Assembly (NCBI GenBank): GCA_963713605.1
Contig: CAVQMO010000001.1
Location: 448,001-512,000 of the forward strand
Direction: 5' to 3'
Length of the DNA stretch: 64,000 nt
Source: an uncultured Nitrososphaerales archaeon
GTDB taxonomy: Archaea > Thermoproteota > Nitrososphaeria > Nitrososphaerales > Nitrososphaeraceae
Shown: positions 44,735-58,712 of the stretch, in pieces
Layout: the number at the start of each line of letters is the position of its first letter
Position numbering within the stretch: the first letter of the stretch is position 1
Made by a program: the position numbers and the translations under genes
The notes under the pieces: model-generated
The model's input: only the letters and a program-made list of their open reading frames with translations
Database searches by the model: none
Told to the model about the DNA's origin: nothing

Positions 44735-47408
44735 ATGGCTAGAACACTAGATAAAACACATACTTTACTCTCTTATATTGAAGGAAGTTTAAGGAATGTG
44801 ACCATAGTCACGGGAGAAGACAAGTATAATGGATTCATATTTTCCTTGCTAAATCCTCCGGTTCCTTTGGGAGGAAATGTTGTATCGTTAGACATTTATG
44901 TCGATGAGATACCCTACCCAAAGAAGTCAATCTTCGTAGCAACTACAGAAGACATGATAAATGCAGCGTCAATTTCAGAAAACCGCCCACTTCCATTTAG
45001 ACCTTTCCAGAGTGCAAGGTTTCTTATCATTAGTAAAGATGGATTACCACAAGGGAAAAAACATAAGATCGTCATTCTAAGCAAGTTAGAGGGTTTCGAA
45101 CAAATACTTATCCCCTTTACACTTATCGACCATGTAGGTGAACAAAGAGAGAAAATAGTTATTCCATCAAATATATTGGAAGATCTCATATACGATACCA
45201 ATAGTGAAGATACCATCTTTAAGAATTTCACATCTCCTCTTATACTCTCTGGAAGGAAGGCATATATTGTTTGTTCTTCCAATGGTTCCCTTTCTGCAAA
45301 TTGGACATGGATGGGGGCCAGGTATGACAACGGAGGGTTGTATGTACCTCCCGTGCGGGCGTTTGGCAGAATTATTGTAGAGCTTTCAATTGAAGATCAA
45401 GTGAGAAAGAAGCTTCCCAATTTCGTTGCCTCCTCAAGACATGAAAAAGGTGTACTTTCAACTAGACATGAATTGGCCGGGCTTCAAGTGAAAAGAAAGT
45501 TGTTTGTCCCAACTGAACGAAAAGGATTCGTAACAATTCTTGAATTGATTGACAGAAGTATAGATCTCCCACGGCTGAGTCCCAAAAAGAGATCTGTAAA
45601 AACAAGGCGTAAGGTACGCATTCATTTTATTATAGATGGTAATATTACCAGCTACGGGCTAGCAGCTATTTCCCAGAGCAATTCTTCTAGATTCATTGAG
45701 AACGAAAATTGTCTTCAAGTGCAGACTGCGGCAAGAAAAGGAATCGCTCACTACTTTGGAACTATTGGCATTGCTCCGAAGGAATTGAAACCATCTCGAA
45801 TCCTGGTCGATACCTTCGATAATGATTTAGAACTATCATATGATATCGAGATCCCTGCCGGAGGAACAAGCGAAATCGCATTGGTTGCATCAGGAAGTTT
45901 CAATAGTTCTGGAGAATGTCTTAATGAATTCCAAACCATTAGAGACAATTATAAGCTACTTTTACGAGAAACACAAGAACATTTCAATCTTGTTATTTCA
46001 TCAAATACGCTAGATATCCAGCCAAATTCTAAGCAAAACCCGACGATTGTAAAAATTGCCAAAGCCTTCGAGAAAGCAAAAACAGGAATGGAGTATCTCA
46101 AAGCAGAATACGACGAGCTTGGCCCCGGCATCTGCGCGGGCTTGCCTCGATTTCCAAATTATTGGGCTAGAGACACAGGTTGGTCATTAAAGGGTTACCT
46201 CTCGCTTGGCGATTATGAATTTGTTTTGTCCGTCTTGGAGAACTTTTTAAGACATCAAGCTGAGGAGGACAACAAGAACTACAATTAAAGGTGAGCTTCC
46301 CATGATTATTAGCGGAAAGGCCTTTCTCCATAGTACTACTTACGGATCGGCTGACTCCACTTTTCTCTTCCCCTGGAGTATCAGAGAATATGTGTATTCA
46401 ACTGGAGACATTAGTTATCTTAAAAAAAGGTGGAACAATATAGTTGATTTGATCAACTGTGGGTTTAGTAAAGATACTGACGGTGATGGATTAATTGAAC
46501 ATGGTTTCACCGGTGTTGCAGAAATACTACCTATTCAGGATTCTACTTGGATGGACCATATAGATAGAAGAAAGAGTGCCAACGATGTGCAGGCTCTTTT
46601 CTATGAAAGCCTGCATATAGGTATCGATCTGGCAAAAATCATGGATGACAAATTACATCTCAAGAGGTGGGAAAAGGGTGCGACTAATTTAAAGCAAAAA
46701 ATTGAGTCCGAATATTGGGACAACAAGGAGGGGTTCTATTTTGATACTATAAGAAGAAACGGTACTAAAGATGCTAGTATAAGACCAAACGCTCTTGTCA
46801 TGTTATTGACTGGAGTCACTGATGTAAAGTCTCATGCCGAATCAGTACTTAGAAGGATTGAAAAAAGTGACATTACTACACCATGGGGTGTAAGGACCCT
46901 TAGCTCTCTTGATTCAAAATACCACCCAAGTCTTTATCATGATGGAGCAATCTGGCCTCTTGTTACCGGTTGGGCGGCTGCAGTTGAGACCAAGTACGGA
47001 CGTAAAGAACAAGCGCTGTACTACATCGAGTCTATGGCGGAGAGAATACTGTCTGAAAACGGGATGTTCGCAGAGACTTACAGAGGGGATAGGCCAGAAC
47101 CATTCAATTCCTGTATTTTACAAGCATGGTCGTTGGCAATGTATGTCTACTCCGTCCGCGAACTTTTTCTAGGGATGCACATCAATTTAGTTGACAACCA
47201 AATAAACTTTGATCCCCGTGTCCCAGACTCTATAAGAAGCAACTCCGTACCTATACGCTTTCACCACAAGTTCTATATTGCGGGGTCGCCACAAGACTCA
47301 GAGATTATTCTTGATCCGTATCAAGAGACAGTTAAAGTAGAATTCAGGAATTTACCAAATCAACAGGTCTTCCGTCCCGAAATCACGAGGCAGCACTTAC
47401 TCAGTTGA
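44735..47408 (+). CDS. Amylo-alpha-1,6-glucosidase-like (alpha/alpha)6 glycosidase with extra N-terminal domain (frameshift near 46270)
   Basis: AGLPRFPNYWARDT, TWMD, IRPN, YHDGAIWP, QAWS. Confidence 0.88.
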
Positions 47409-48087: not shown

Positions 48088-49071
48088 TCACAAATCTGAA
48101 TAGCCCCTGTTTTCCAATTCCTCAGGAATATCATCTTTCCTCGTCAAAAAGACCTTCCCAGTACCCTTCGATACCTTACCAATTTCAATTAATTTCAACC
48201 CTTTAGATGTTGCCACCTGTCGCGCTCTACTCAACCTCCCTAATGGAATGGTTCCCACAATCTCGAATTCCTCACCACCGTACATTACCAAGTCCTTGCT
48301 ACTTATCCCATTCTCCGAGGCAAACTCATCGATTCCAGAAGCTATGGGAGCCCTTTCAACATGAAAATCTACATTGCTCTTAATCGCTAGTCGATACAGT
48401 GAACTGGCAAGACCGTCACTAGAATCAATAGAGGAAGAAAGAAATTTTCGAAGAGAAATTCCAAATTTGGGTCTTGGTTTAGGAAGCATCACGGACGACG
48501 TATATTTGGCCTTGATCTGTTTGTTTACCCTTGCATTATTTAAGAGTATTTTAAGACCTGCTGCAGTCCTTCCAAAGACTCCTGATGTGACAATTACGTC
48601 TCCAGGCTTTGCTCCGCTCTGAGCTGGGATTGTAGAAATTGGAATGTTAGAATGACCAAACATCGAACAGTCTATTGTAAATTCGTTGCTATGATTAGTA
48701 TCACCCCCTATGATATTAATTCCAAACTCCTTGGAAGCCCTCTTGAATCCACGAGTCAACTCTTTGATAGTGTGTAAAGAGATTGATCGGGGAAGGCCCA
48801 AGGAAAGGATGCATGCTGACGGTGTAAGCCCTTTTGCGGCGAAATCACTTACACACGATACTATACTTTTTCTGGCGACTTGCCATGACTTCATAAAGGG
48901 TGGAATGTCAGTACTCCCAACTAACATGTCGCACTTGAAAGCCAGCAGTCGGGGTCGTTTCGTCCTACCCAAATCAATAAGCGCTACATCATCTAGAGGG
49001 AATGGCAGCATGTGAAGTCGAAGCTCGGAGGACAGAATGTTAATTATCTGCTGTTCCCTCGATTCTCTCAT
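48088..49071 (-). CDS. thiL: Thiamine-monophosphate kinase
   Basis: DDVA, SDFAAKG, GGDT, DSSDGL, GGEEFE. Confidence 0.93.
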   Translation of the reverse strand: MRESREQQIINILSSELRLHMLPFPLDDVALIDLGRTKRPRLLAFKCDMLVGSTDIPPFMKSWQVARKSIVSCVSDFAAKGLTPSACILSLGLPRSISLHTIKELTRGFKRASKEFGINIIGGDTNHSNEFTIDCSMFGHSNIPISTIPAQSGAKPGDVIVTSGVFGRTAAGLKILLNNARVNKQIKAKYTSSVMLPKPRPKFGISLRKFLSSSIDSSDGLASSLYRLAIKSNVDFHVERAPIASGIDEFASENGISSKDLVMYGGEEFEIVGTIPLGRLSRARQVATSKGLKLIEIGKVSKGTGKVFLTRKDDIPEELENRGYSDL

Positions 49072-50368
49072 TGATGGCGAGTACCTTTGCCTTTATGAAC
49101 TCAAACAAATCATGAGTTTTATTCACCGTCGACTCCACTGAAATCCTCAAGATATCCTCTGTATTTGATGGCCTAACTAGAATCCATGAATTCTCATCTA
49201 ACAGTGCCTTTATCCCATCGTCAAGAATGGTTTCAGTAGCGATTTTTCGTAATGGCTCAACCAATTCGTTGATAATTTTGAATTTCGCTGAATTAGGGAC
49301 ATAGACCTTAGATCTTTGTTGTTTGTAGTTTCGAATGAATTGAAGGTATTCATCTTGTTTTTCTTCTTCTAAGCTTGAGATCAACGCACTTGCCAACAAA
49401 CCGTCTCTACACATGTTAAACTTAGGAGATATATAGCCAGCGCTGCTTCCTTCACCTCCTGCATCTGCCCCTGTCTCTAACATTTTGCTAACGACATTCG
49501 CTTCCCCTACTTTAGAGTAAACGATCTTTCCCCCTGAATATTTGATAAATTTCTCTAGAGCAAGACTAGTGTCCAAGCTCACAACAAACTTCCGGGCACC
49601 TTGGTCAATTGCTGCACCAATACACAGTAACAGGGTTGCATCTGGCTCCATTTTTCTACCGTATCTGTCTACTACAACTACCCTGTCCCCATCTAGGTCA
49701 AAAGCAAATCCGAGCGACAATTTATTATTCGTTACCAATGACCCTAATTCGTTCAAGTTTTCAACCGTTGGATCGGTCCCTCTTGAGGATACGCCGTACG
49801 CATCATTAATACCTAAATAGCCATGGCCTAATTCATGAAATAGCATGTTTACGTATCCACAATTGGCCCCACCACCGGGATCTAAACCTATCTTTTTTTT
49901 ATGGGAATGATTTCTGTCCTGCATAAAGTTCAATACGTCAGTCACATATGAGGAAGTAATTTGAAATACTGACCCTGGTTTACTTGGACTATACTCCTTA
50001 TTCGTAAGTATACTTTCTAGATCTTGCTCAGATAAACCTCTCCCATTCAAAATGAATTTTAGGCCGTTCCAATCCAAGGGATTATGTGAGGCAGTTATCA
50101 TTATTCCACCTTTATGTCTTCTTGCTTCTCTAAATGTAATAGGTGTAGGAGCAATATCTAGGTAAAATACTTGGACTCCTTGTTCCAATAGCGAGGCTAA
50201 AGTTGCGTATGCCAAGATTTGACCCGATGGCCGTGTATCCCTTGAGACGATGCATGAATTATTGCTCTTTATCAATGTCGCTGCAAAGGATCTGGTGAAC
50301 TTACTCACATCGGTTGCTCGCAAATCATTTCCATACACGCCTCTGATCCCTGAAATGGATACTTTCAT
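49040..50368 (-). CDS. Phosphohexomutase (PMM/PGM/GlmM family)
   Basis: SISGIRG, ITASHNP, FDLDGDR, RPSNTE. Confidence 0.93.
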   Translation of the reverse strand: MKVSISGIRGVYGNDLRATDVSKFTRSFAATLIKSNNSCIVSRDTRPSGQILAYATLASLLEQGVQVFYLDIAPTPITFREARRHKGGIMITASHNPLDWNGLKFILNGRGLSEQDLESILTNKEYSPSKPGSVFQITSSYVTDVLNFMQDRNHSHKKKIGLDPGGGANCGYVNMLFHELGHGYLGINDAYGVSSRGTDPTVENLNELGSLVTNNKLSLGFAFDLDGDRVVVVDRYGRKMEPDATLLLCIGAAIDQGARKFVVSLDTSLALEKFIKYSGGKIVYSKVGEANVVSKMLETGADAGGEGSSAGYISPKFNMCRDGLLASALISSLEEEKQDEYLQFIRNYKQQRSKVYVPNSAKFKIINELVEPLRKIATETILDDGIKALLDENSWILVRPSNTEDILRISVESTVNKTHDLFEFIKAKVLAINERIEGTADN

Positions 50369-50567
50369 GGTAATAGCATTATCTACCAAATATTTATTCG
50401 TGTGCAAGCTTTCGGTAAGTTATGGTTTATAGAGGTGAAGAATTGAATAAAATGTCCTTAACAGAAATCTAGTTCGGTGTATACGTACCTTAAATAATGG
50501 ATTGGCCGTGACGAAACAGGAGGCTATCCTAGACAAAAATGCTCTCATATGTAAACGCACTCCATAG

Positions 50568-51192
50568 CAAAACTATACGATATCGCTAACTGACTTCCTC
50601 AGGTTTGCAAAAATTGGAGCTGACCAAATCCTAAAGCTGGAGCCTAAGAAGGTTCAAGCTATCCTGATCAGCTACATTGTAGACATGAATGATAATAGAC
50701 GGCTAGCACCTAATAGCATGAAAGGAAGGATTGCAGCAGTAAAGACATTCTTTCTGTTAAATGATTTTGAGGGTATAAATTTAGGGTTTAAGGTAAAAAA
50801 GTATATTGGTGAATTCTATCGGGTGGCAGAGAATAGACCCCATACAAGGAAGGAAATCAAAAGACTAGTTAACGCAGCTCATACCAATAGAGATAAAGTT
50901 ATCATATTACTTTTAGCTAGTTCCGGAATGCGGAGAGAAGCCATAGTAAGATTGGCAGCTAAAGCATTTGAAAAAGATAGAGGAATATAATATATTTCTA
51001 ATCGACGTATACAAACAAGCAAGGGCGCATTATTACATCTTTTGTACTCCAGAGGCTAGGAAAGCCATAGAAGAATATCTAGATTGGAGGGCTAAGGTAG
51101 TAGAGCCTAATTTGTATGCTAAAAAACAGTTCAACTCTAAATCATCGATACCAATCAGGGTACCGGAGGCTCAATTTCATACTAAATCCTAA
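50568..51192 (+). pseudogene. Truncated tyrosine recombinase/integrase
   Basis: Core-binding region plus RDKVIILLLASSGMRREA (catalytic Arg box) and YYIFCTPEARKAIEEYL; no HxxR or Tyr C-terminus; in-frame TAG at 50565. Confidence 0.85.
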
Positions 51193-51202
51193 TGTGAAGT
51201 AC

Positions 51203-51385
51203 ATGACCGCAAAACCTTCAAATTCCAGGGTATATAGAAAAAAGTTGCATATTTCTGTTGTAAAGCTTTTTGCACTAAGCGGCAATAAATGTGCTTTCCC
51301 TCATTGAGGTGTCCAACTCGTATATACTGGTGTGAATCAAATTAAAGCTTACATGATAAACGTTTTCATATCATACAACGATTAG
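51203..51385 (+). pseudogene. HNH-nuclease-like fragment
   Basis: KLFALSGNKCAFPH* with TGA (51305) where the second Cys is expected. Confidence 0.5.
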
Positions 51386-51467
51386 AGGACGGAGAGGAAT
51401 TTATAATCTCAATTTATATATTCAAGCTCGTTTAGGTACCTATACACCTATTTTACAGAAATCTAGA

Positions 51468-51540
51468 GCCCTAGTAGCTCAGCTGGCGGAGCGAGGGTTT
51501 CGTAAACCCTAGGCCATGGGTTCAAATCCCATCTAGGGCT
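51468..51540 (+). tRNA. tRNA-Thr(CGT)
   Basis: GCCCTAG/CTAGGGC; AGGGT-TT-CGT-AA-ACCCT; GGTTCAAATCC. Confidence 0.95.
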
Positions 51541-52181
51541 CTCATCTCGGAATTGACTTCATTGCACTTCCAGCACCTGTGATAGTCATAGTATTCTAAA
51601 TATTCTAGATATCAACCTCTTAGAAATGATCAAAAGAGCGGTGAAGCCTTGCAAGATCCCTTACCTAAATCTACAGCTTTCCACAATTCCTGCGGCTAAT
51701 GCTAAATGCGTTCCAGCTGGAAGAGATTCTATAGATTTTGGGTTACTCCTTAGTATTTTGGAAACAAGGAAGTTAGATATCAATTAGGTAGATCAGCCGA
51801 TCTATCCTCTTCCGTTACCTTTGTAGATATATCACCTCAAATCAAGTGTCATTAGTTTGAATTTATCAATGAGATCCTTGCTTCCTTTTTTCTTAATTCG
51901 AACTATCGATCAAATATATATTTGGTCCGGGGATCATCAAGTTTTAACTCCACCAAACCTTGATACCTTGAATGTTTCAGAACCTAGACCATGTCTCCTC
52001 CGCCCTACACAAAATCTTCGGGTGTTAGATTATAATGGCGATCCAACCGCTCGTATCGAATCTCCATTTTTAACCGAAGCAGATGTGATAGACTTGTCTT
52101 AGGATAAATCGCTTTTCGGTAAAAGGTTAAATCTAGTTCGTTGATTACAAAAAATGTTTGAAATCTAAGAGTATTACTGAA

Positions 52182-54071
52182 ATGGCCTCGTCTAGAATCT
52201 GTACCGTCGGGATCTTCATCAGGTGTTCAAACAAAAAGCAAAGCAAAGATCAACTTTAGTAGAAAAGCTGAATCTGAGTTCTTTGTAGATAATTCTGCTT
52301 TAGCAGGGTTTACTGGAGAGCGAATTTTGTATATGGCTATACGCGAGCTCATTGAGAATTCCCTCGATTCATGCGAGGCAGAGCGGATCTTGCCAAAAAT
52401 AGCAGTATCGCTCAAACTGATAGATCCTCTAAATGATTTGTGGTCGATATCATGTGAGGACAATGGGATTGGGATCCGTTCGGATAAGGTCTCTGTAGCT
52501 GTCTGTTCGTTTCTTACCTCCGGTAAGTATGTCGAACAACAGCAACGAGGTTTATTCGGCGTTGGTCTAAAAATGATAGCGAGCATTTTCTACAAAAGAT
52601 ACGGATCATCCTCTTCGAGTATGGTCAAAATCAGCTGAAGAGGCCAGCGAATATTACTTTGAGTTACGCACGGACATTGGTACCAATAAGCCAATAGTAT
52701 TGACAAGGCGTGATACTAAGCCTAAAGAATCTATTCTCAGAGGAAAGTCTGGTTTTCGGATAGAGGCAGTCTTACGAGGACGGCTTTCCCCTATAACCAA
52801 GAATAAGATACATGATTATATAAGTCAGACCAGCATTGTGAATCCCTACGCTGTGATATCATTTTCAACGGATGATGGAAAGATTACATTTGATAAGCGA
52901 ACCACTATCATGCCTGAACCCGCCAAGAAGGTTCTTCCACACCCCGCAGACATGGATTTAAAGACGCTAAAGAAGGCAATTGGGAATCATGCTCTTCAGA
53001 AGACATCAATACAAGGTATATTATGCAATTCCTTTCAAAAGCTGTCATTTGATAAGGCCAAAGAAATTATTAAAAATGCAGGTATTGAAGCAAAACAGGC
53101 TGATAAATATAATGAACATGAGCTTATCAAAATTGTAAATATTTGCAGGCAAACTAAATTTCAATCCCCTAATGTAGACCATTTGAGCCCAATTGGAGAA
53201 CGAATCTTTACAGTCGGAATGACTACTGAGAGAGCTATCCTTACTAAGAAAGAAAACGCGATTTCAGACGACCATCCTACAGCCAAGAATATCAACAAAA
53301 GAGATGAAACCGACACTAACAGGATATTCGTCCCGGGCATGTATAATTAATAACAGACCAACAATAGTAGAATGCGGACTTGCTTACGGAGGTAATCTTT
53401 CTTATTTTAAGCTCTATCGGTTTGCGAACAAGATACCTTTGCTTTATGATGAAGGATCTGATGTAGCTAGGGAAGTAATTTCGGAAGTAGAATTAAACAA
53501 GATGGGTGTATCTAAGAAGCAAGTTAAAGAGCAATTCAGTGGTCTGGATTCTCGATCGGATCGTGCGATAGATCTCCTTCCAATCCACATATTTTTCCAT
53601 ATATGCTCTACAAAAATTCCATACAAGACTGCGGGAAAAGAAAGTATAGCATCTGAAGGTGATTTGAAAAAATATATGAAAGCCTGCCTTAGTGACCTTT
53701 ACAGAAAAGTAAGTAAGCAGATACGACATGAAATGCATTTGAGGGACGCAGAGAACAGGCTTAAACTATACAAGTATTATATACCTTTGATAGTAAATGC
53801 AATTTCTGAATCTATTGACGTTAGCGCTGAGGATCTGACTAACAGCTTTTTGACCTTGGTTGAGAGACATGTGAAGAAGGAAGCCTCTCACCCGCGATCA
53901 CTTAAGGCCAAAGCTGAGAATCACACAGTATTAAAACAGGGGCGTAATATTCGAGGACTGTATAAGAGTTCGAGGTCGACCAAGTCAAGTAAATCTTCGA
54001 AAATGAAGCGTGCGGACAGTACGCAGGAGAAAATCGAGAATTTCATGGCATCTCCGGAGGATTTGGGTTAG
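52182..54071 (+). CDS. top6B: DNA topoisomerase VI subunit B (several frameshifts)
   Basis: RELIENSLD, EDNGIGI, QQRGLFGVG, RFANKIPLLYD, YKTAGKE. Confidence 0.93.
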
Positions 54072-57060: not shown

Positions 57061-58712
57061 TTTAGTAATTTGGTAACATAATTTCCGTTCCGTTCATAAC
57101 CCAGTTTTTCGTAGTATTTTCTTGTTCCTACAGCACTAATCACTGATAAGGCGTCTACACCGAACTCGCATTTACTATTTGCTCAGCCTCGGCCATTAGC
57201 AATCTCCCTAGACCTCTATGCTGCCAAGACAGATTATTTGCTTTTCTTCCAACCCTAAGCGTCTGGCCATAAACGTGGAGTTCTCTTACAATAGCTACAA
57301 CTTGAGTGCGGTTATCGTGGCGTACATATGAATGAAGCTCAGATTCAACGGATCCAGTAACCTTTCTCAACCTCAGGAAACCCAATAATGCTGATCCATC
57401 GTCTGTTTCATAAGACAAGAAAACTTCTTGCCCTCCTGCCGCCTTGTAATCCAATCTAAATAACCGAAAGGATCGATGATCAATACTGCCTTTCGACCTT
57501 AATCCTATCTCTCTGCATCTGATGCACTTACATGTATACCCTTCTGAGTACAATCTTTCTAAGGCTATTTGTCTGAGGTTACCCTCTTTAGGACCAGCTA
57601 TTATATCCTTTGTTTCTATCTCCCTTTGGATCCTCATAATCCGGACCCAAGGAGGAATTTTCTTTTTCAATTCAACAAGTATTTTTACTATCTCCTCATC
57701 AGAACATGGGATAAACCGCCCACTACAATACATCTTATGCAATCCTGTATTTTTTACGTACTAGCGTAGGGTATATTTTTAGCATGTCAGGTCTGTAAAG
57801 AGGATCGTACATAAGCCGCTGTAAGTCTTCTAGGTCTTTTTTAGGAGATGAGCCGGGTAGACCTGGCATCATATGTGCAACTATTTTTAATCCTGCATTT
57901 CTAGCAATACTGAATGCTTCTATTACATCATCCATGTTATGCCCTCGGTTAGTCAGCCTGAAAACTTCATTTCGTAGCGACTGAACACCGATTTCTACTC
58001 TTGTTGCCCCTAGACTTAGCATCATCTCGATATGGCTCCGCTTGCAGTAATCAGGTTTAGTCTCGATTGTTAGCCCGACACATTTGTGATTTGATATTTC
58101 GTTGACGCTCATAGCCTCTTGAAGGTTGGATGAGGGTTCTGTCTTCAAATCACAATTGAGCGCATCATAACAAGCCTTTGCAAAATCCTGCTGATACTTT
58201 TTCATCATAAAAGGAAAAGTCCCACCTATTATGATTAATTCTATTTTGCCTGTATCATGACCATTTATCTCAAGGGTATTCAATTTAGTGGTTATCTGTT
58301 CAAAGGGATCGTATCCATGAGCTTGAGCAATTTTCGTGGCAGGTTCCGACCCTACATAACTCAAAGGAGTGTTGAACTCAACCCCACCTGGACAATAAAT
58401 ACATCTCCCTTGAGGACATGGGTGGGGTGTTGCCATTACAGTTACGATAGTAACACCTGATGCTGTTTTTACAGGTCTTATCTTCAAAGTGTTCCTCCAG
58501 GAACAGTTCTCTGGCAAATATTTCATAAAATCGTGGCGACGAGGGAGGTGTTTCAGATGAAACTCTGACGAAACTTCACTTAAAATAGTTGATACAATGG
58601 GTAATCTGGATTCATCCAGTTCGCATATTCTTCTTGCGATTTCCTTGCAGGCCAGATTATACTGAAATGAAATTTCTGCACCTGAGATTCCGACTAATTT
58701 CGACGCGGTCAT
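57057..58712 (-). CDS. elp3: Elp3 tRNA uridine(34) acetyltransferase (two frameshifts)
   Basis: [12 protein letters not shown] radical [33 protein letters not shown]. Confidence 0.94.

What the first reader, a model, noticed from the sequence alone, without database searches (positions are those of the whole stretch)
50461..51466. Mini tyrosine-recombinase element with both a 12-bp direct repeat and terminal inverted repeats, inserted just upstream of tRNA-Thr
Seen: an exact direct repeat ACAGAAATCTAG at 50461-50472 and 51455-51466. Just inside it, 3 and 6 bp in, are 15-bp inverted repeats matching at 14/15 (GGTGTATAcGTACCT / GGTGTATAgGTACCT). Between them lie a truncated integrase and a cargo fragment. 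The right repeat ends 1 bp before mature tRNA-Thr(CGT), so the duplicated site is in the tRNA 5' leader, not in the tRNA gene. Known: archaeal tyrosine integrases usually duplicate part of the tRNA gene itself, whereas inverted repeats plus a long target duplication are typical of casposons and transposons. Inference: this is an internally deleted remnant of a family of IR-bounded tyrosine-recombinase elements that target tRNA leaders, with intact ends that might be mobilised in trans.
Basis: partly seen in the sequence, partly recalled or inferred. Interest (0 to 1): 0.8.

Follow-up and report, generated by a model that had tools for sequence, protein, structure and literature searches.

The report
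Decayed archaeal integrase element, both ends
This is the dead 1-kb remnant of a mobile DNA element in a soil ammonia-oxidising archaeon; the remnant is ordinary, but its ends show that this enzyme family probably inserts DNA without needing matching sequence at the cut site, a mode known from some bacterial elements and that I did not find described for archaea.

Summary
The repeats are real and mark a true 994-bp insertion: 12 of 13 same-genus genomes show the empty site. Inside lie a dead tyrosine-integrase gene and an HNH-nuclease fragment. The repeats are not transposon-type terminal repeats with a target duplication. The left 'inverted repeat' is the 8-bp spacer plus inner 12-bp arm of a recombinase core site found upstream of related Nitrososphaeraceae integrases. 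In relatives, host homology stops 0-5 bp left of that spacer, and the spacer does not match the empty site (16/56 positions). The direct repeat corresponds to the shared outer arm. An inverted spacer-plus-arm copy recurs inside the far end of other elements (4 of 8 comparisons; 20 of 25 tRNA-Met-type ends). Most likely this is a CTnDOT/Tn916-like, homology-independent integration by an Xer-like integrase that lacks an arm-binding domain. The family uses many kinds of target; the tRNA-Thr leader is not a hotspot. The insertion displaced the tRNA's TATA box. Strains decay independently, and no excised or empty form was seen in contigs of 4 runs. The remnant is ordinary; the family's att anatomy and inferred mechanism appear undescribed, apart from one passing published case.

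The parts
49040..50407 (-). host phosphomannomutase gene (left flank, not part of the element)
   Evidence: Pfam PGM_PMM I-IV; next to tRNA-Thr in relatives
50443..50450 (+). original TATA box of tRNA-Thr, displaced by 994 bp; G at 50445 where the relatives and run X4 have A (probable decay)
   Evidence: promoter role inferred from position and conservation
50461..50472 (+). left copy of the 12-bp direct repeat (region shared by host target and element end; the crossover lies in or just right of it)
50465..50476 (+). outer (left) arm of the predicted 12-8-12 core site; its last 3-4 bases are not host sequence of this site; the same 12-mer occurs once more in the genome, at 52129-52140
50477..50484 (+).
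   Evidence: family motif, 8-bp symmetry, 2/8 match to the empty site
50485..50496 (+). inner arm of the core site; ends in a TATA-like heptamer (50490-50496) placed as the integrase promoter
   Evidence: arm profile score 9.5 bits, reached by about 2 in 10,000 genome positions or fewer; promoter role inferred
50508..51192 (+). tyrosine-integrase pseudogene: 11-bp deletion with stop near 50545-50567, a 1-bp frameshift near 50954 (absent in runs X1, X2, X4), homology ends near 51105; the catalytic HxxR, H and Y region is deleted
51197..51364 (+). N-terminal fragment of an HNH-nuclease-like cargo gene with an internal stop
   Evidence: 48-53% identity to ORFs in G008; Pfam HNH_2 on that ORF
51413..51420 (+). 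candidate replacement TATA box for the tRNA (would give a leader of about 25 nt)
   Evidence: pattern only; not tested
51428..51447 (-). inverted copy of spacer plus inner arm (16/20 identical); includes the right inverted repeat 51434-51448; predicted accessory integrase-binding site
   Evidence: p=0.0003; same placement in other elements
51455..51466 (+). right copy of the 12-bp direct repeat
51468..51541 (+). intact host tRNA-Thr(CGT)
   Evidence: ARAGORN
52129..52140 (+). conserved host 12-mer in the promoter of the topoisomerase VI B gene, identical to 50465-50476; possible cognate target arm of the element, or coincidence

Best explanation
A dead, internally deleted integrated element of a large Nitrososphaeraceae family of Xer-like tyrosine integrases. 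Shown: a true insertion; a dead integrase; a 12-8-12 symmetric site directly upstream of related integrases; a spacer that comes from the element and does not match the target; a direct repeat that coincides with the outer arm; an inverted spacer-plus-arm copy about 20-31 bp inside the far end of several elements. Inferred mechanism: the circular element carries arm P, spacer and arm P' next to the integrase gene, plus one extra inverted binding site. Integrase binds P and P' on the circle and a P-like arm B on the chromosome, and exchanges strands at the left edge of the spacer without needing spacer homology, as IntDOT and Tn916 integrases do. The junction is finished at that edge or a few bases to the left, within the P/B similarity (branch migration or repair). 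The result is a short direct repeat made of the shared arm, with the element's spacer at the integrase end. Here the crossover fell within or just right of the 12-bp repeat, leaving the tRNA intact but separated from its TATA box. Later deletions removed the catalytic half of the integrase and almost all cargo. The extra inverted site probably shapes the synapse or sets directionality in place of an arm-binding domain (inferred, untested).
For: Empty site in 12 of 13 same-genus genomes. Motif upstream of 44 of 71 related integrase loci, 28 strong. The left flank mirrors the inner arm at an 8-bp spacing: 6.5/12 against 2.9-5.2 at the 16 other spacings (profile version). Seven occupied/empty pairs match at 47/56 positions in arm -12..-5, 12/28 at -4..-1, 16/56 in the spacer and 27/84 in the inner arm. 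At one site both junctions were recovered: the 13/14 repeat is the outer arm and the spacers match 2/8. Inverted copy at the far end in 4 of 8 other comparisons (p=0.0007, 0.0013, 0.017, 0.048), three of them at 24 bp against 23 bp here. The same in 20 of 25 tRNA-Met-type element ends against a 6.6% null. Full-length relatives keep R, K, HxxR, H and Y, begin with the core-binding domain (Pfam SAM 14-82) and are nearest to XerA. Published parallel: one Nitrososphaera element with a 13-bp att replaced 8 nt of its target by non-homologous element sequence (PMC6563490, section 6).
Against: No biochemistry; cleavage positions are inferred from symmetry. The motif search was seeded with a pattern I had noticed, and related loci are not independent. 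The window's own outer arm mirrors its inner arm at only 5/12 and scores poorly on the arm profile. The exact repeat ends 4 bp short of the spacer, so the crossover here is not at the predicted edge and needs a second step. Four of 8 other two-ended comparisons lack a significant inverted copy. In the 27 other strong-motif loci no distant inverted copy reached 16/18, but only 0.8-20 kb of downstream DNA was available. Spacing of the inverted arm varies (about 28 to 39 bp from the crossover). Empty-site partners are 72-96% identical relatives, one of them a paralogous locus, so single-base boundaries are soft.
Confidence: 0.68

Rival explanations
1. Ordinary homology-dependent integrase: the 12-bp direct repeat contains the overlap region where strands are exchanged, and both inverted repeats are accessory sites on either side of it in attP.
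For: The exact repeat here is perfect and flanked symmetrically by the inverted repeats. Host homology often ends 4-5 bp left of the spacer (4 of 7 pairs have 0-1 of 4 matches at -4..-1). Short att repeats are the norm in thaumarchaeal elements (median 17 bp, PMC6563490). A copy at G000 C3:162878 carries the same 16 bases left of the spacer as L097 although it lies at another locus, so part of the outer arm travels with the element.
Against: It does not explain the dyad symmetry centred on the 8-bp spacer, which also holds in a tRNA-Met element whose inner arm departs from the family motif yet mirrors the tRNA end (7/12). In tRNA-Met elements host identity runs right up to the spacer. The integrases have no arm-binding domain.
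Confidence: 0.2
2. Same family mechanism, but the element's proper target is the promoter of the topoisomerase VI B gene 660 bp downstream of the tRNA start, whose 12-mer equals the element's outer arm; it landed here off-target through 12 bp of microhomology. This is a variant of the best explanation for this copy, not an alternative to the family model.
For: 50465-50476 equals 52129-52140, the only two copies in the genome, and the 12-mer is exact in 7 of 12 relatives. That site is more symmetric than the tRNA site (5/12 against 3/12). It accounts for the 4 non-host bases.
Against: No integrase was found beside 48 loci that I checked from the 12-mer and inverted-repeat pattern searches. A 4-5-bp offset occurs in three other elements. 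In run X4 base 50473 differs (depth under 5). The match was noticed after the fact.
Confidence: 0.3
3. Casposon- or DDE-transposon-type insertion: terminal inverted repeats with a 12-bp target-site duplication, the integrase being cargo.
For: A 12-bp duplication of a variable host sequence with inverted repeats near both ends; thaumarchaeal casposons have such flanks and one carries a XerC-like gene (PMC6563490).
Against: The repeats are not terminal (3 and 6 unrelated bases outside them). No Cas1 was found in G000 (87% complete), and the six-frame translation of the interval is accounted for by the integrase and HNH remains. The left repeat is the integrase family's own upstream site. The same layout occurs in elements with intact tyrosine integrases.
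Confidence: 0.03
4. The two inverted sites form an invertible switch or a foldable single-strand attachment site (CTX-phage or integron style).
For: The central 6 bp of the two spacers are identical in inverted orientation here, and the inverted spacer is also 8/8 in two other elements and 5/8 in a third.
Against: No strand-changing joint in contigs of 4 runs. The inverted spacer is not kept at the G005/G010 site. In the circle the two sites would abut, leaving little room to fold a full core.
Confidence: 0.08

Closest known systems
Thaumarchaeal cryptic integrated elements (Krupovic et al. 2019, PMC6563490)
   Same: Tyrosine integrase at one end; short att repeats (8 bp upward, median 17); tRNA, intergenic and intragenic targets; one element with a 13-bp att and 8 nt of non-homologous replacement.
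   Different: In the sections and Table S2 that I read, inverted repeats are listed only for casposons, and no core-site anatomy, arm/spacer assignment or mechanism is given. This copy is a 1-kb dead remnant, smaller than their smallest element (2.6 kb).
CTnDOT integrase IntDOT and Tn916-type integrases (PMC2817482)
   Same: Identity between donor and target lies mainly in one core-binding arm (D and B share 8 of 10 bp) and most of the overlap is non-homologous; many targets.
   Different: [quoted passage not shown] Here there is no arm-binding domain, the spacer is 8-9 bp and constant per element type, and it was always found at the integrase end.
Archaeal XerA/dif and 'simple' tyrosine recombinases (PMC8371274, PMC8138268)
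   Same: Core-binding plus catalytic domain only; nearest profiles and structures are XerA; symmetric two-arm site.
   Different: Scores are far below the XerA cut-off (74 against 220 bits); dif is 11-6-11 and both partners are identical, whereas here 12-8-12 with unlike spacers; mobile and multi-copy, with a long C-terminal helix.
Casposons (PMC4046053)
   Same: Inverted repeats inside a direct repeat; occur in Thaumarchaeota.
   Different: No Cas1 or PolB; repeats not terminal; the direct repeat is explained as a shared binding arm.
Non-autonomous att-flanked remnants (cis-mobilisable elements; recalled, no call)
   Same: Both ends kept, mobility gene lost by internal deletion.
   Different: No active partner shown; one strain has already lost the left end.

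Membership tests
Thaumarchaeal tyrosine-integrase integrated element (cryptic integrated element) | Tyrosine-integrase gene at one end | tested here: met
   Pseudogene 74% identical to P0001, which carries PF00589 and all catalytic residues
Thaumarchaeal tyrosine-integrase integrated element (cryptic integrated element) | Flanking direct repeats and an empty site in relatives | tested here: met
Thaumarchaeal tyrosine-integrase integrated element (cryptic integrated element) | Ability to excise or replicate | tested here: not met
   Catalytic half deleted; no empty or circular joint in contigs of 4 runs (contigs drop rare forms)
Casposon | Cas1 casposase (and PolB) gene | tested here: not met
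   None in the element; PF01867 not found in G000
Casposon | Terminal inverted repeats flush with the target duplication | tested here: not met
   3 and 6 unrelated bases lie between
CTnDOT/Tn916-type homology-independent integrases | Non-identical overlap regions in donor and target | tested here: met
   Spacer 16/56 against 47/56 in the arm, 7 pairs; both junctions at one site. By comparison of genomes, not by assay
CTnDOT/Tn916-type homology-independent integrases | N-terminal arm-binding domain | tested here: not met
   Core-binding domain starts at about residue 14; the model shows only helices there
CTnDOT/Tn916-type homology-independent integrases | Coupling sequences that vary with the previous target | tested here: not met
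   Spacer conserved in the family motif and constant per element type in 32 tRNA-Met-type junctions
CTnDOT/Tn916-type homology-independent integrases | Mapped cleavage sites and strand order | not testable with these tools
   needs in vitro assay
XerA/dif | Above the XerA family cut-off; single conserved housekeeping copy | tested here: not met
   74 against 220 bits; 26 loci of this family in G000, mostly broken
   0 of 24 other genomes examined at this site; nearest relatives use other targets. Other tRNA leaders were not surveyed

The most novel reading that the evidence does not exclude
Ammonia-oxidising archaea carry an abundant, undescribed class of Xer-like integrases that act as homology-independent, broad-target integrases without an arm-binding domain. 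They pair one 12-bp arm with a look-alike in the chromosome, always bring their own 8-bp spacer (possibly by a single strand exchange finished by host branch migration), use a second inverted copy of their own site as a built-in accessory element, and retarget (promoters, gene ends, tRNA 3' ends) by co-changing both arms. Most short 'att sites' published for these archaea would then be binding arms, not crossover regions.
Probability: 0.45. Interest if true: 0.72.

Novelty: new variant of a known kind. Interest (0 to 1): 0.45.

Why it matters
The remnant itself is a dead islet. Its value is that it exposes the att anatomy of an integrase family with matches in 58 of 238 family genomes at E<=1e-60 and 26 loci in this genome. 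The review on archaeal tyrosine recombinases notes that shared att sequence is not sufficient for recombination and that non-tRNA targets were never assayed (PMC8371274). The 12-8-12 model gives exact, testable cleavage positions and explains why thaumarchaeal att repeats are so short. It also gives a rule for finding element ends in these genomes, and a possible small integrase with 12-bp arms for engineering ammonia oxidisers.

Tried and rejected
Pattern search for the exact inverted repeat in 201 family genomes: 73 genomes match at <=1 mismatch, about as many as the reversed control; the two other exact hits have no integrase nearby. Collection scans with the close-relative alignment gave 3 loci (metagenomes), 3 loci (genomes) and none (viral contigs). 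An unseeded motif search locked onto glutamine-rich codons and was discarded. Searches for right-hand junctions failed or were uninformative for L132, L033, L145, L149, L142, L031, L097 and for the G000 elements at C3:163 kb, C10:57 kb and C3:94 kb: contigs end, flanks are deleted or too diverged. I first read the 9-bp spacer in the tRNA-Met array as a transferred host coupling sequence; one search showed it belongs to a second element type, so I dropped that. One of 8 occupied/empty pairs (L031) anchored at a wrong place and was left out of the sums. Empty sites for the G042 element confirm host synteny after the right junction (5 of 7) but are too diverged to place the crossover. No element at the 52129 site in other genomes. 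The structure prediction from a 5-row alignment had low confidence (mean pLDDT 49; only residues 1-100 and the C-terminal helix usable), so no fold search was run. The bacterial promoter scan does not apply. The tree is the quick version only.

Full report
1. Observation. The window shows the 12-bp direct repeat (50461-50472, 51455-51466), the 15-bp inverted repeats (50476-50490, 51434-51448; 14/15) and tRNA-Thr(CGT) at 51468-51541 as described. The 12-mer occurs exactly twice in the 4.09-Mb genome, and each inverted repeat has no other copy within one mismatch except one unrelated-looking site. Among 44,185 exact 12-bp repeat pairs 0.1-3 kb apart on the five largest contigs, only this pair has such inverted repeats inside.

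2. It is an insertion. Of 13 same-genus genomes, 11 show phosphomannomutase, TATA box, about 24 bp and tRNA in direct succession. A twelfth (G009) shows TATA box, a single exact copy of the 12-mer and the tRNA. The thirteenth (57% complete) has no match. One of the 12 (G013) is unpublished; the count is 11 without it. In 12 more distant genomes the two genes are 54-145 bp apart (10), 322 bp apart (1) or unlinked (1), and none of the 21 loci tested has an integrase hit. The repeat lies between the tRNA's TATA box and the tRNA, so the insertion displaced the promoter. The displaced box has G at 50445 where relatives and run X4 have A. A TATA-like octamer at 51413-51420 could replace it (untested). 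A tRNA-Thr(TGT) is also present, so the CGU tRNA may be dispensable (established wobble rules).

3. Contents. The integrase remnant is 74% identical to a 361-aa protein (P0001) and groups with five such proteins (support 100, quick tree). These keep all catalytic residues; the remnant stops before HxxR, H and Y. They score 66-74 bits against archaeal XerA (cut-off 220); XerA is also the nearest solved structure. They begin directly with the core-binding domain. The cargo is the first 55 codons of an HNH-type protein. Contigs of 4 runs from 3 studies all carry the element; X2 and X8 are nearly identical to this genome and may not be independent. They show separate lesions: X1 lacks 50436-50497 (native TATA, left repeat and left site); X4 keeps 11 bp that this genome lacks near 50545 but lacks 11 bp at 50733; the extra base at 50954 is absent in X1, X2 and X4 and may be an assembly error. 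No joint skips the element, closes a circle or inverts it (contigs drop rare forms). This is neutral decay of a fixed insertion.

4. What the left inverted repeat is. Related integrases are common: 58 of 238 family genomes at E<=1e-60, 26 loci in this genome. A seeded profile finds a motif shortly upstream of 44 of 71 distinct loci, 28 of them strong, ending in a TATA-like heptamer (one strong locus, L134, is from unpublished G013). The window's left repeat is this motif. The DNA to its left mirrors the last 12 bp at an 8-bp spacing: 6.5/12 identity against 2.9-5.2 at the other 16 spacings; profile score -2.6 against -5.6 to -14. This is the layout of a tyrosine-recombinase core: arm, 8-bp spacer, arm. 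In a tRNA-Met element of this genome the inner arm departs from the family motif and mirrors the tRNA 3' end instead (7/12), as expected if one protein binds both arms.

5. Where the crossover lies. In 7 occupied/empty pairs (an eighth was mis-anchored and dropped) identity is 47/56 at arm positions -12..-5, 12/28 at -4..-1, 16/56 in the spacer and 27/84 in the inner arm (sites first found). Host sequence thus ends at or up to 5 bp left of the spacer, and the spacer is not shared with the target. Three pairs match 3 of 4 at -4..-1; four, including the window, match 0-1 of 4. For one site both junctions were recovered in G005: a 13/14 repeat equal to the outer arm, with spacers matching 2/8. 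In 32 tRNA-Met-type junctions from 8 genomes (30 of 47 pattern hits were fetched, G013 left out, plus this genome) the spacer stays constant with the element's left end. Targets include promoters, a gene end, the inside of a coding gene and tRNA 3' ends.

6. What the right inverted repeat is. For elements with both ends fixed by a repeat or an empty site, I looked for an inverted copy of spacer plus inner arm 14-45 bp inside the far end. The window scores 16/20 at 23 bp (p=0.0003). Four of 8 other comparisons pass: the tRNA-Met element (15/20, 24 bp, p=0.0007; first found by a detector that scored this feature, but its repeat is the nearest downstream copy), G042a (14/20, 24 bp, p=0.0013; repeat found independently), G059a (13/20, 20 bp, p=0.017) and the G010 end compared with the G005 left end (12/20, 24 bp, p=0.048). 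G005's own end, G014b, G125c and a tRNA-Lys element do not pass. Twenty of 25 tRNA-Met-type right ends carry an inverted arm 32-33 or 38-39 bp from the crossover (null 6.6%; kin are not independent). 'Inverted repeats inside a direct repeat' is therefore a recurrent, not universal, family layout: the integrase's own site at one end and an extra inverted copy at the other.

7. Mechanism. The best reading is homology-independent integration at a 12-8-12 core. The direct repeat arises because the element's outer arm resembles the target arm. The junction is completed at the spacer edge or a few bases left of it, which also leaves this tRNA intact. The closest worked-out system is IntDOT, where D and B arms share 8 of 10 bp and 5 of 7 overlap bases differ (PMC2817482, passages). 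This family lacks an arm-binding domain and keeps a constant spacer, which hints at one strand exchange finished by host functions (inference). For this copy the origin of the 4 non-host bases is open. They may be element sequence left by a leftward-shifted junction, or decay of a longer repeat reaching 3 nt into the tRNA (13/16 here, 14/16 in X4 at depth under 5). They may also be a trace of a cognate target at 52129-52140, whose 12-mer equals the outer arm (no element found there in other genomes). Mobilisation in trans is doubtful: long paralogues are 25-35% identical and the 58% paralogue is a fragment.

8. Literature. PMC6563490: outline, passages, sections 6 and 13, and supplementary Table S2 read in full. 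It reports att sites from 8 bp (median 17), 29 of 68 outside tRNA genes, and one element that replaced 8 nt of its target with non-homologous sequence beside a 13-bp att; it lists inverted repeats only for casposons. Its figures and supplementary files 1, 2 and 4 were not seen and may bear on family assignment. Complete genomes among the handles may overlap that study's genomes, so they are not counted as independent of it. PMC8371274: passages and section 17. PMC8138268 and PMC4046053: passages. bioRxiv 2023.11.06.565760: abstract only. Seven searches found no description of this arm/spacer anatomy or of homology-independent integration in archaea; the library lacks most subscription papers. 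Two earlier notes of this scan describe similar direct-plus-inverted ends at archaeal tRNA-Arg remnants and judged them ordinary (unchecked).

9. Verdict. Observation confirmed; interpretation partly supported. The feature is a dead remnant of a known kind of element. The family-level att anatomy and the inferred mechanism are a new variant, supported by genome comparison only. Interest 0.45.

Noticed in passing
G000 C10:850,600-1,044,500 (outside the window): tRNA-Met hotspot with at least 8 attachment-like junctions over about 194 kb and an intact 406-aa integrase at the first; several element types with their own spacers; similar arrays in other genomes of the genus.
   Followed up: partly
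window 52327-54071: The topoisomerase VI B gene is split into three ORFs; a 1-bp difference at 52200 and the one at 50954 are absent from reads, so the assembly probably has small indel errors. Genes at 44735-47408 and 57155-58712 are also split.
   Followed up: no
G000 C3:162,866-163,200 and L097:2138-2190: The closest paralogue (92-aa fragment) shares 16 bases left of the spacer with an element beside a universal-stress-protein gene, although it lies at a different locus and this genome's own copy of that site is empty.
   Followed up: partly
L270 (G010:C91:5700-6800): Another remnant of about 1.1 kb that keeps only the right end of a family element, at a site occupied by an intact integrase element in G005.
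   Followed up: partly
L164 (G125): Intact integrase gene flanked by a 21-bp direct repeat only 1.6 kb apart, possibly an integrase-only element; no inverted copy.
   Followed up: no
G016:C69:36591-36633: Second copy of the tRNA-Thr 3' part 14 kb downstream of the gene, suggesting an element at the 3' end of the same tRNA in another genus.
   Followed up: no
L036 (G010:C198:66430-68940): About 2 kb of extra DNA between tRNA-Thr and the topoisomerase VI B promoter in G010; no long ORF.
   Followed up: partly
G000 C10:59,878-59,892: One-mismatch copy of the right inverted repeat 2.2 kb upstream of an intact distant integrase; lacks the TATA-like arm end, probably chance.
   Followed up: partly
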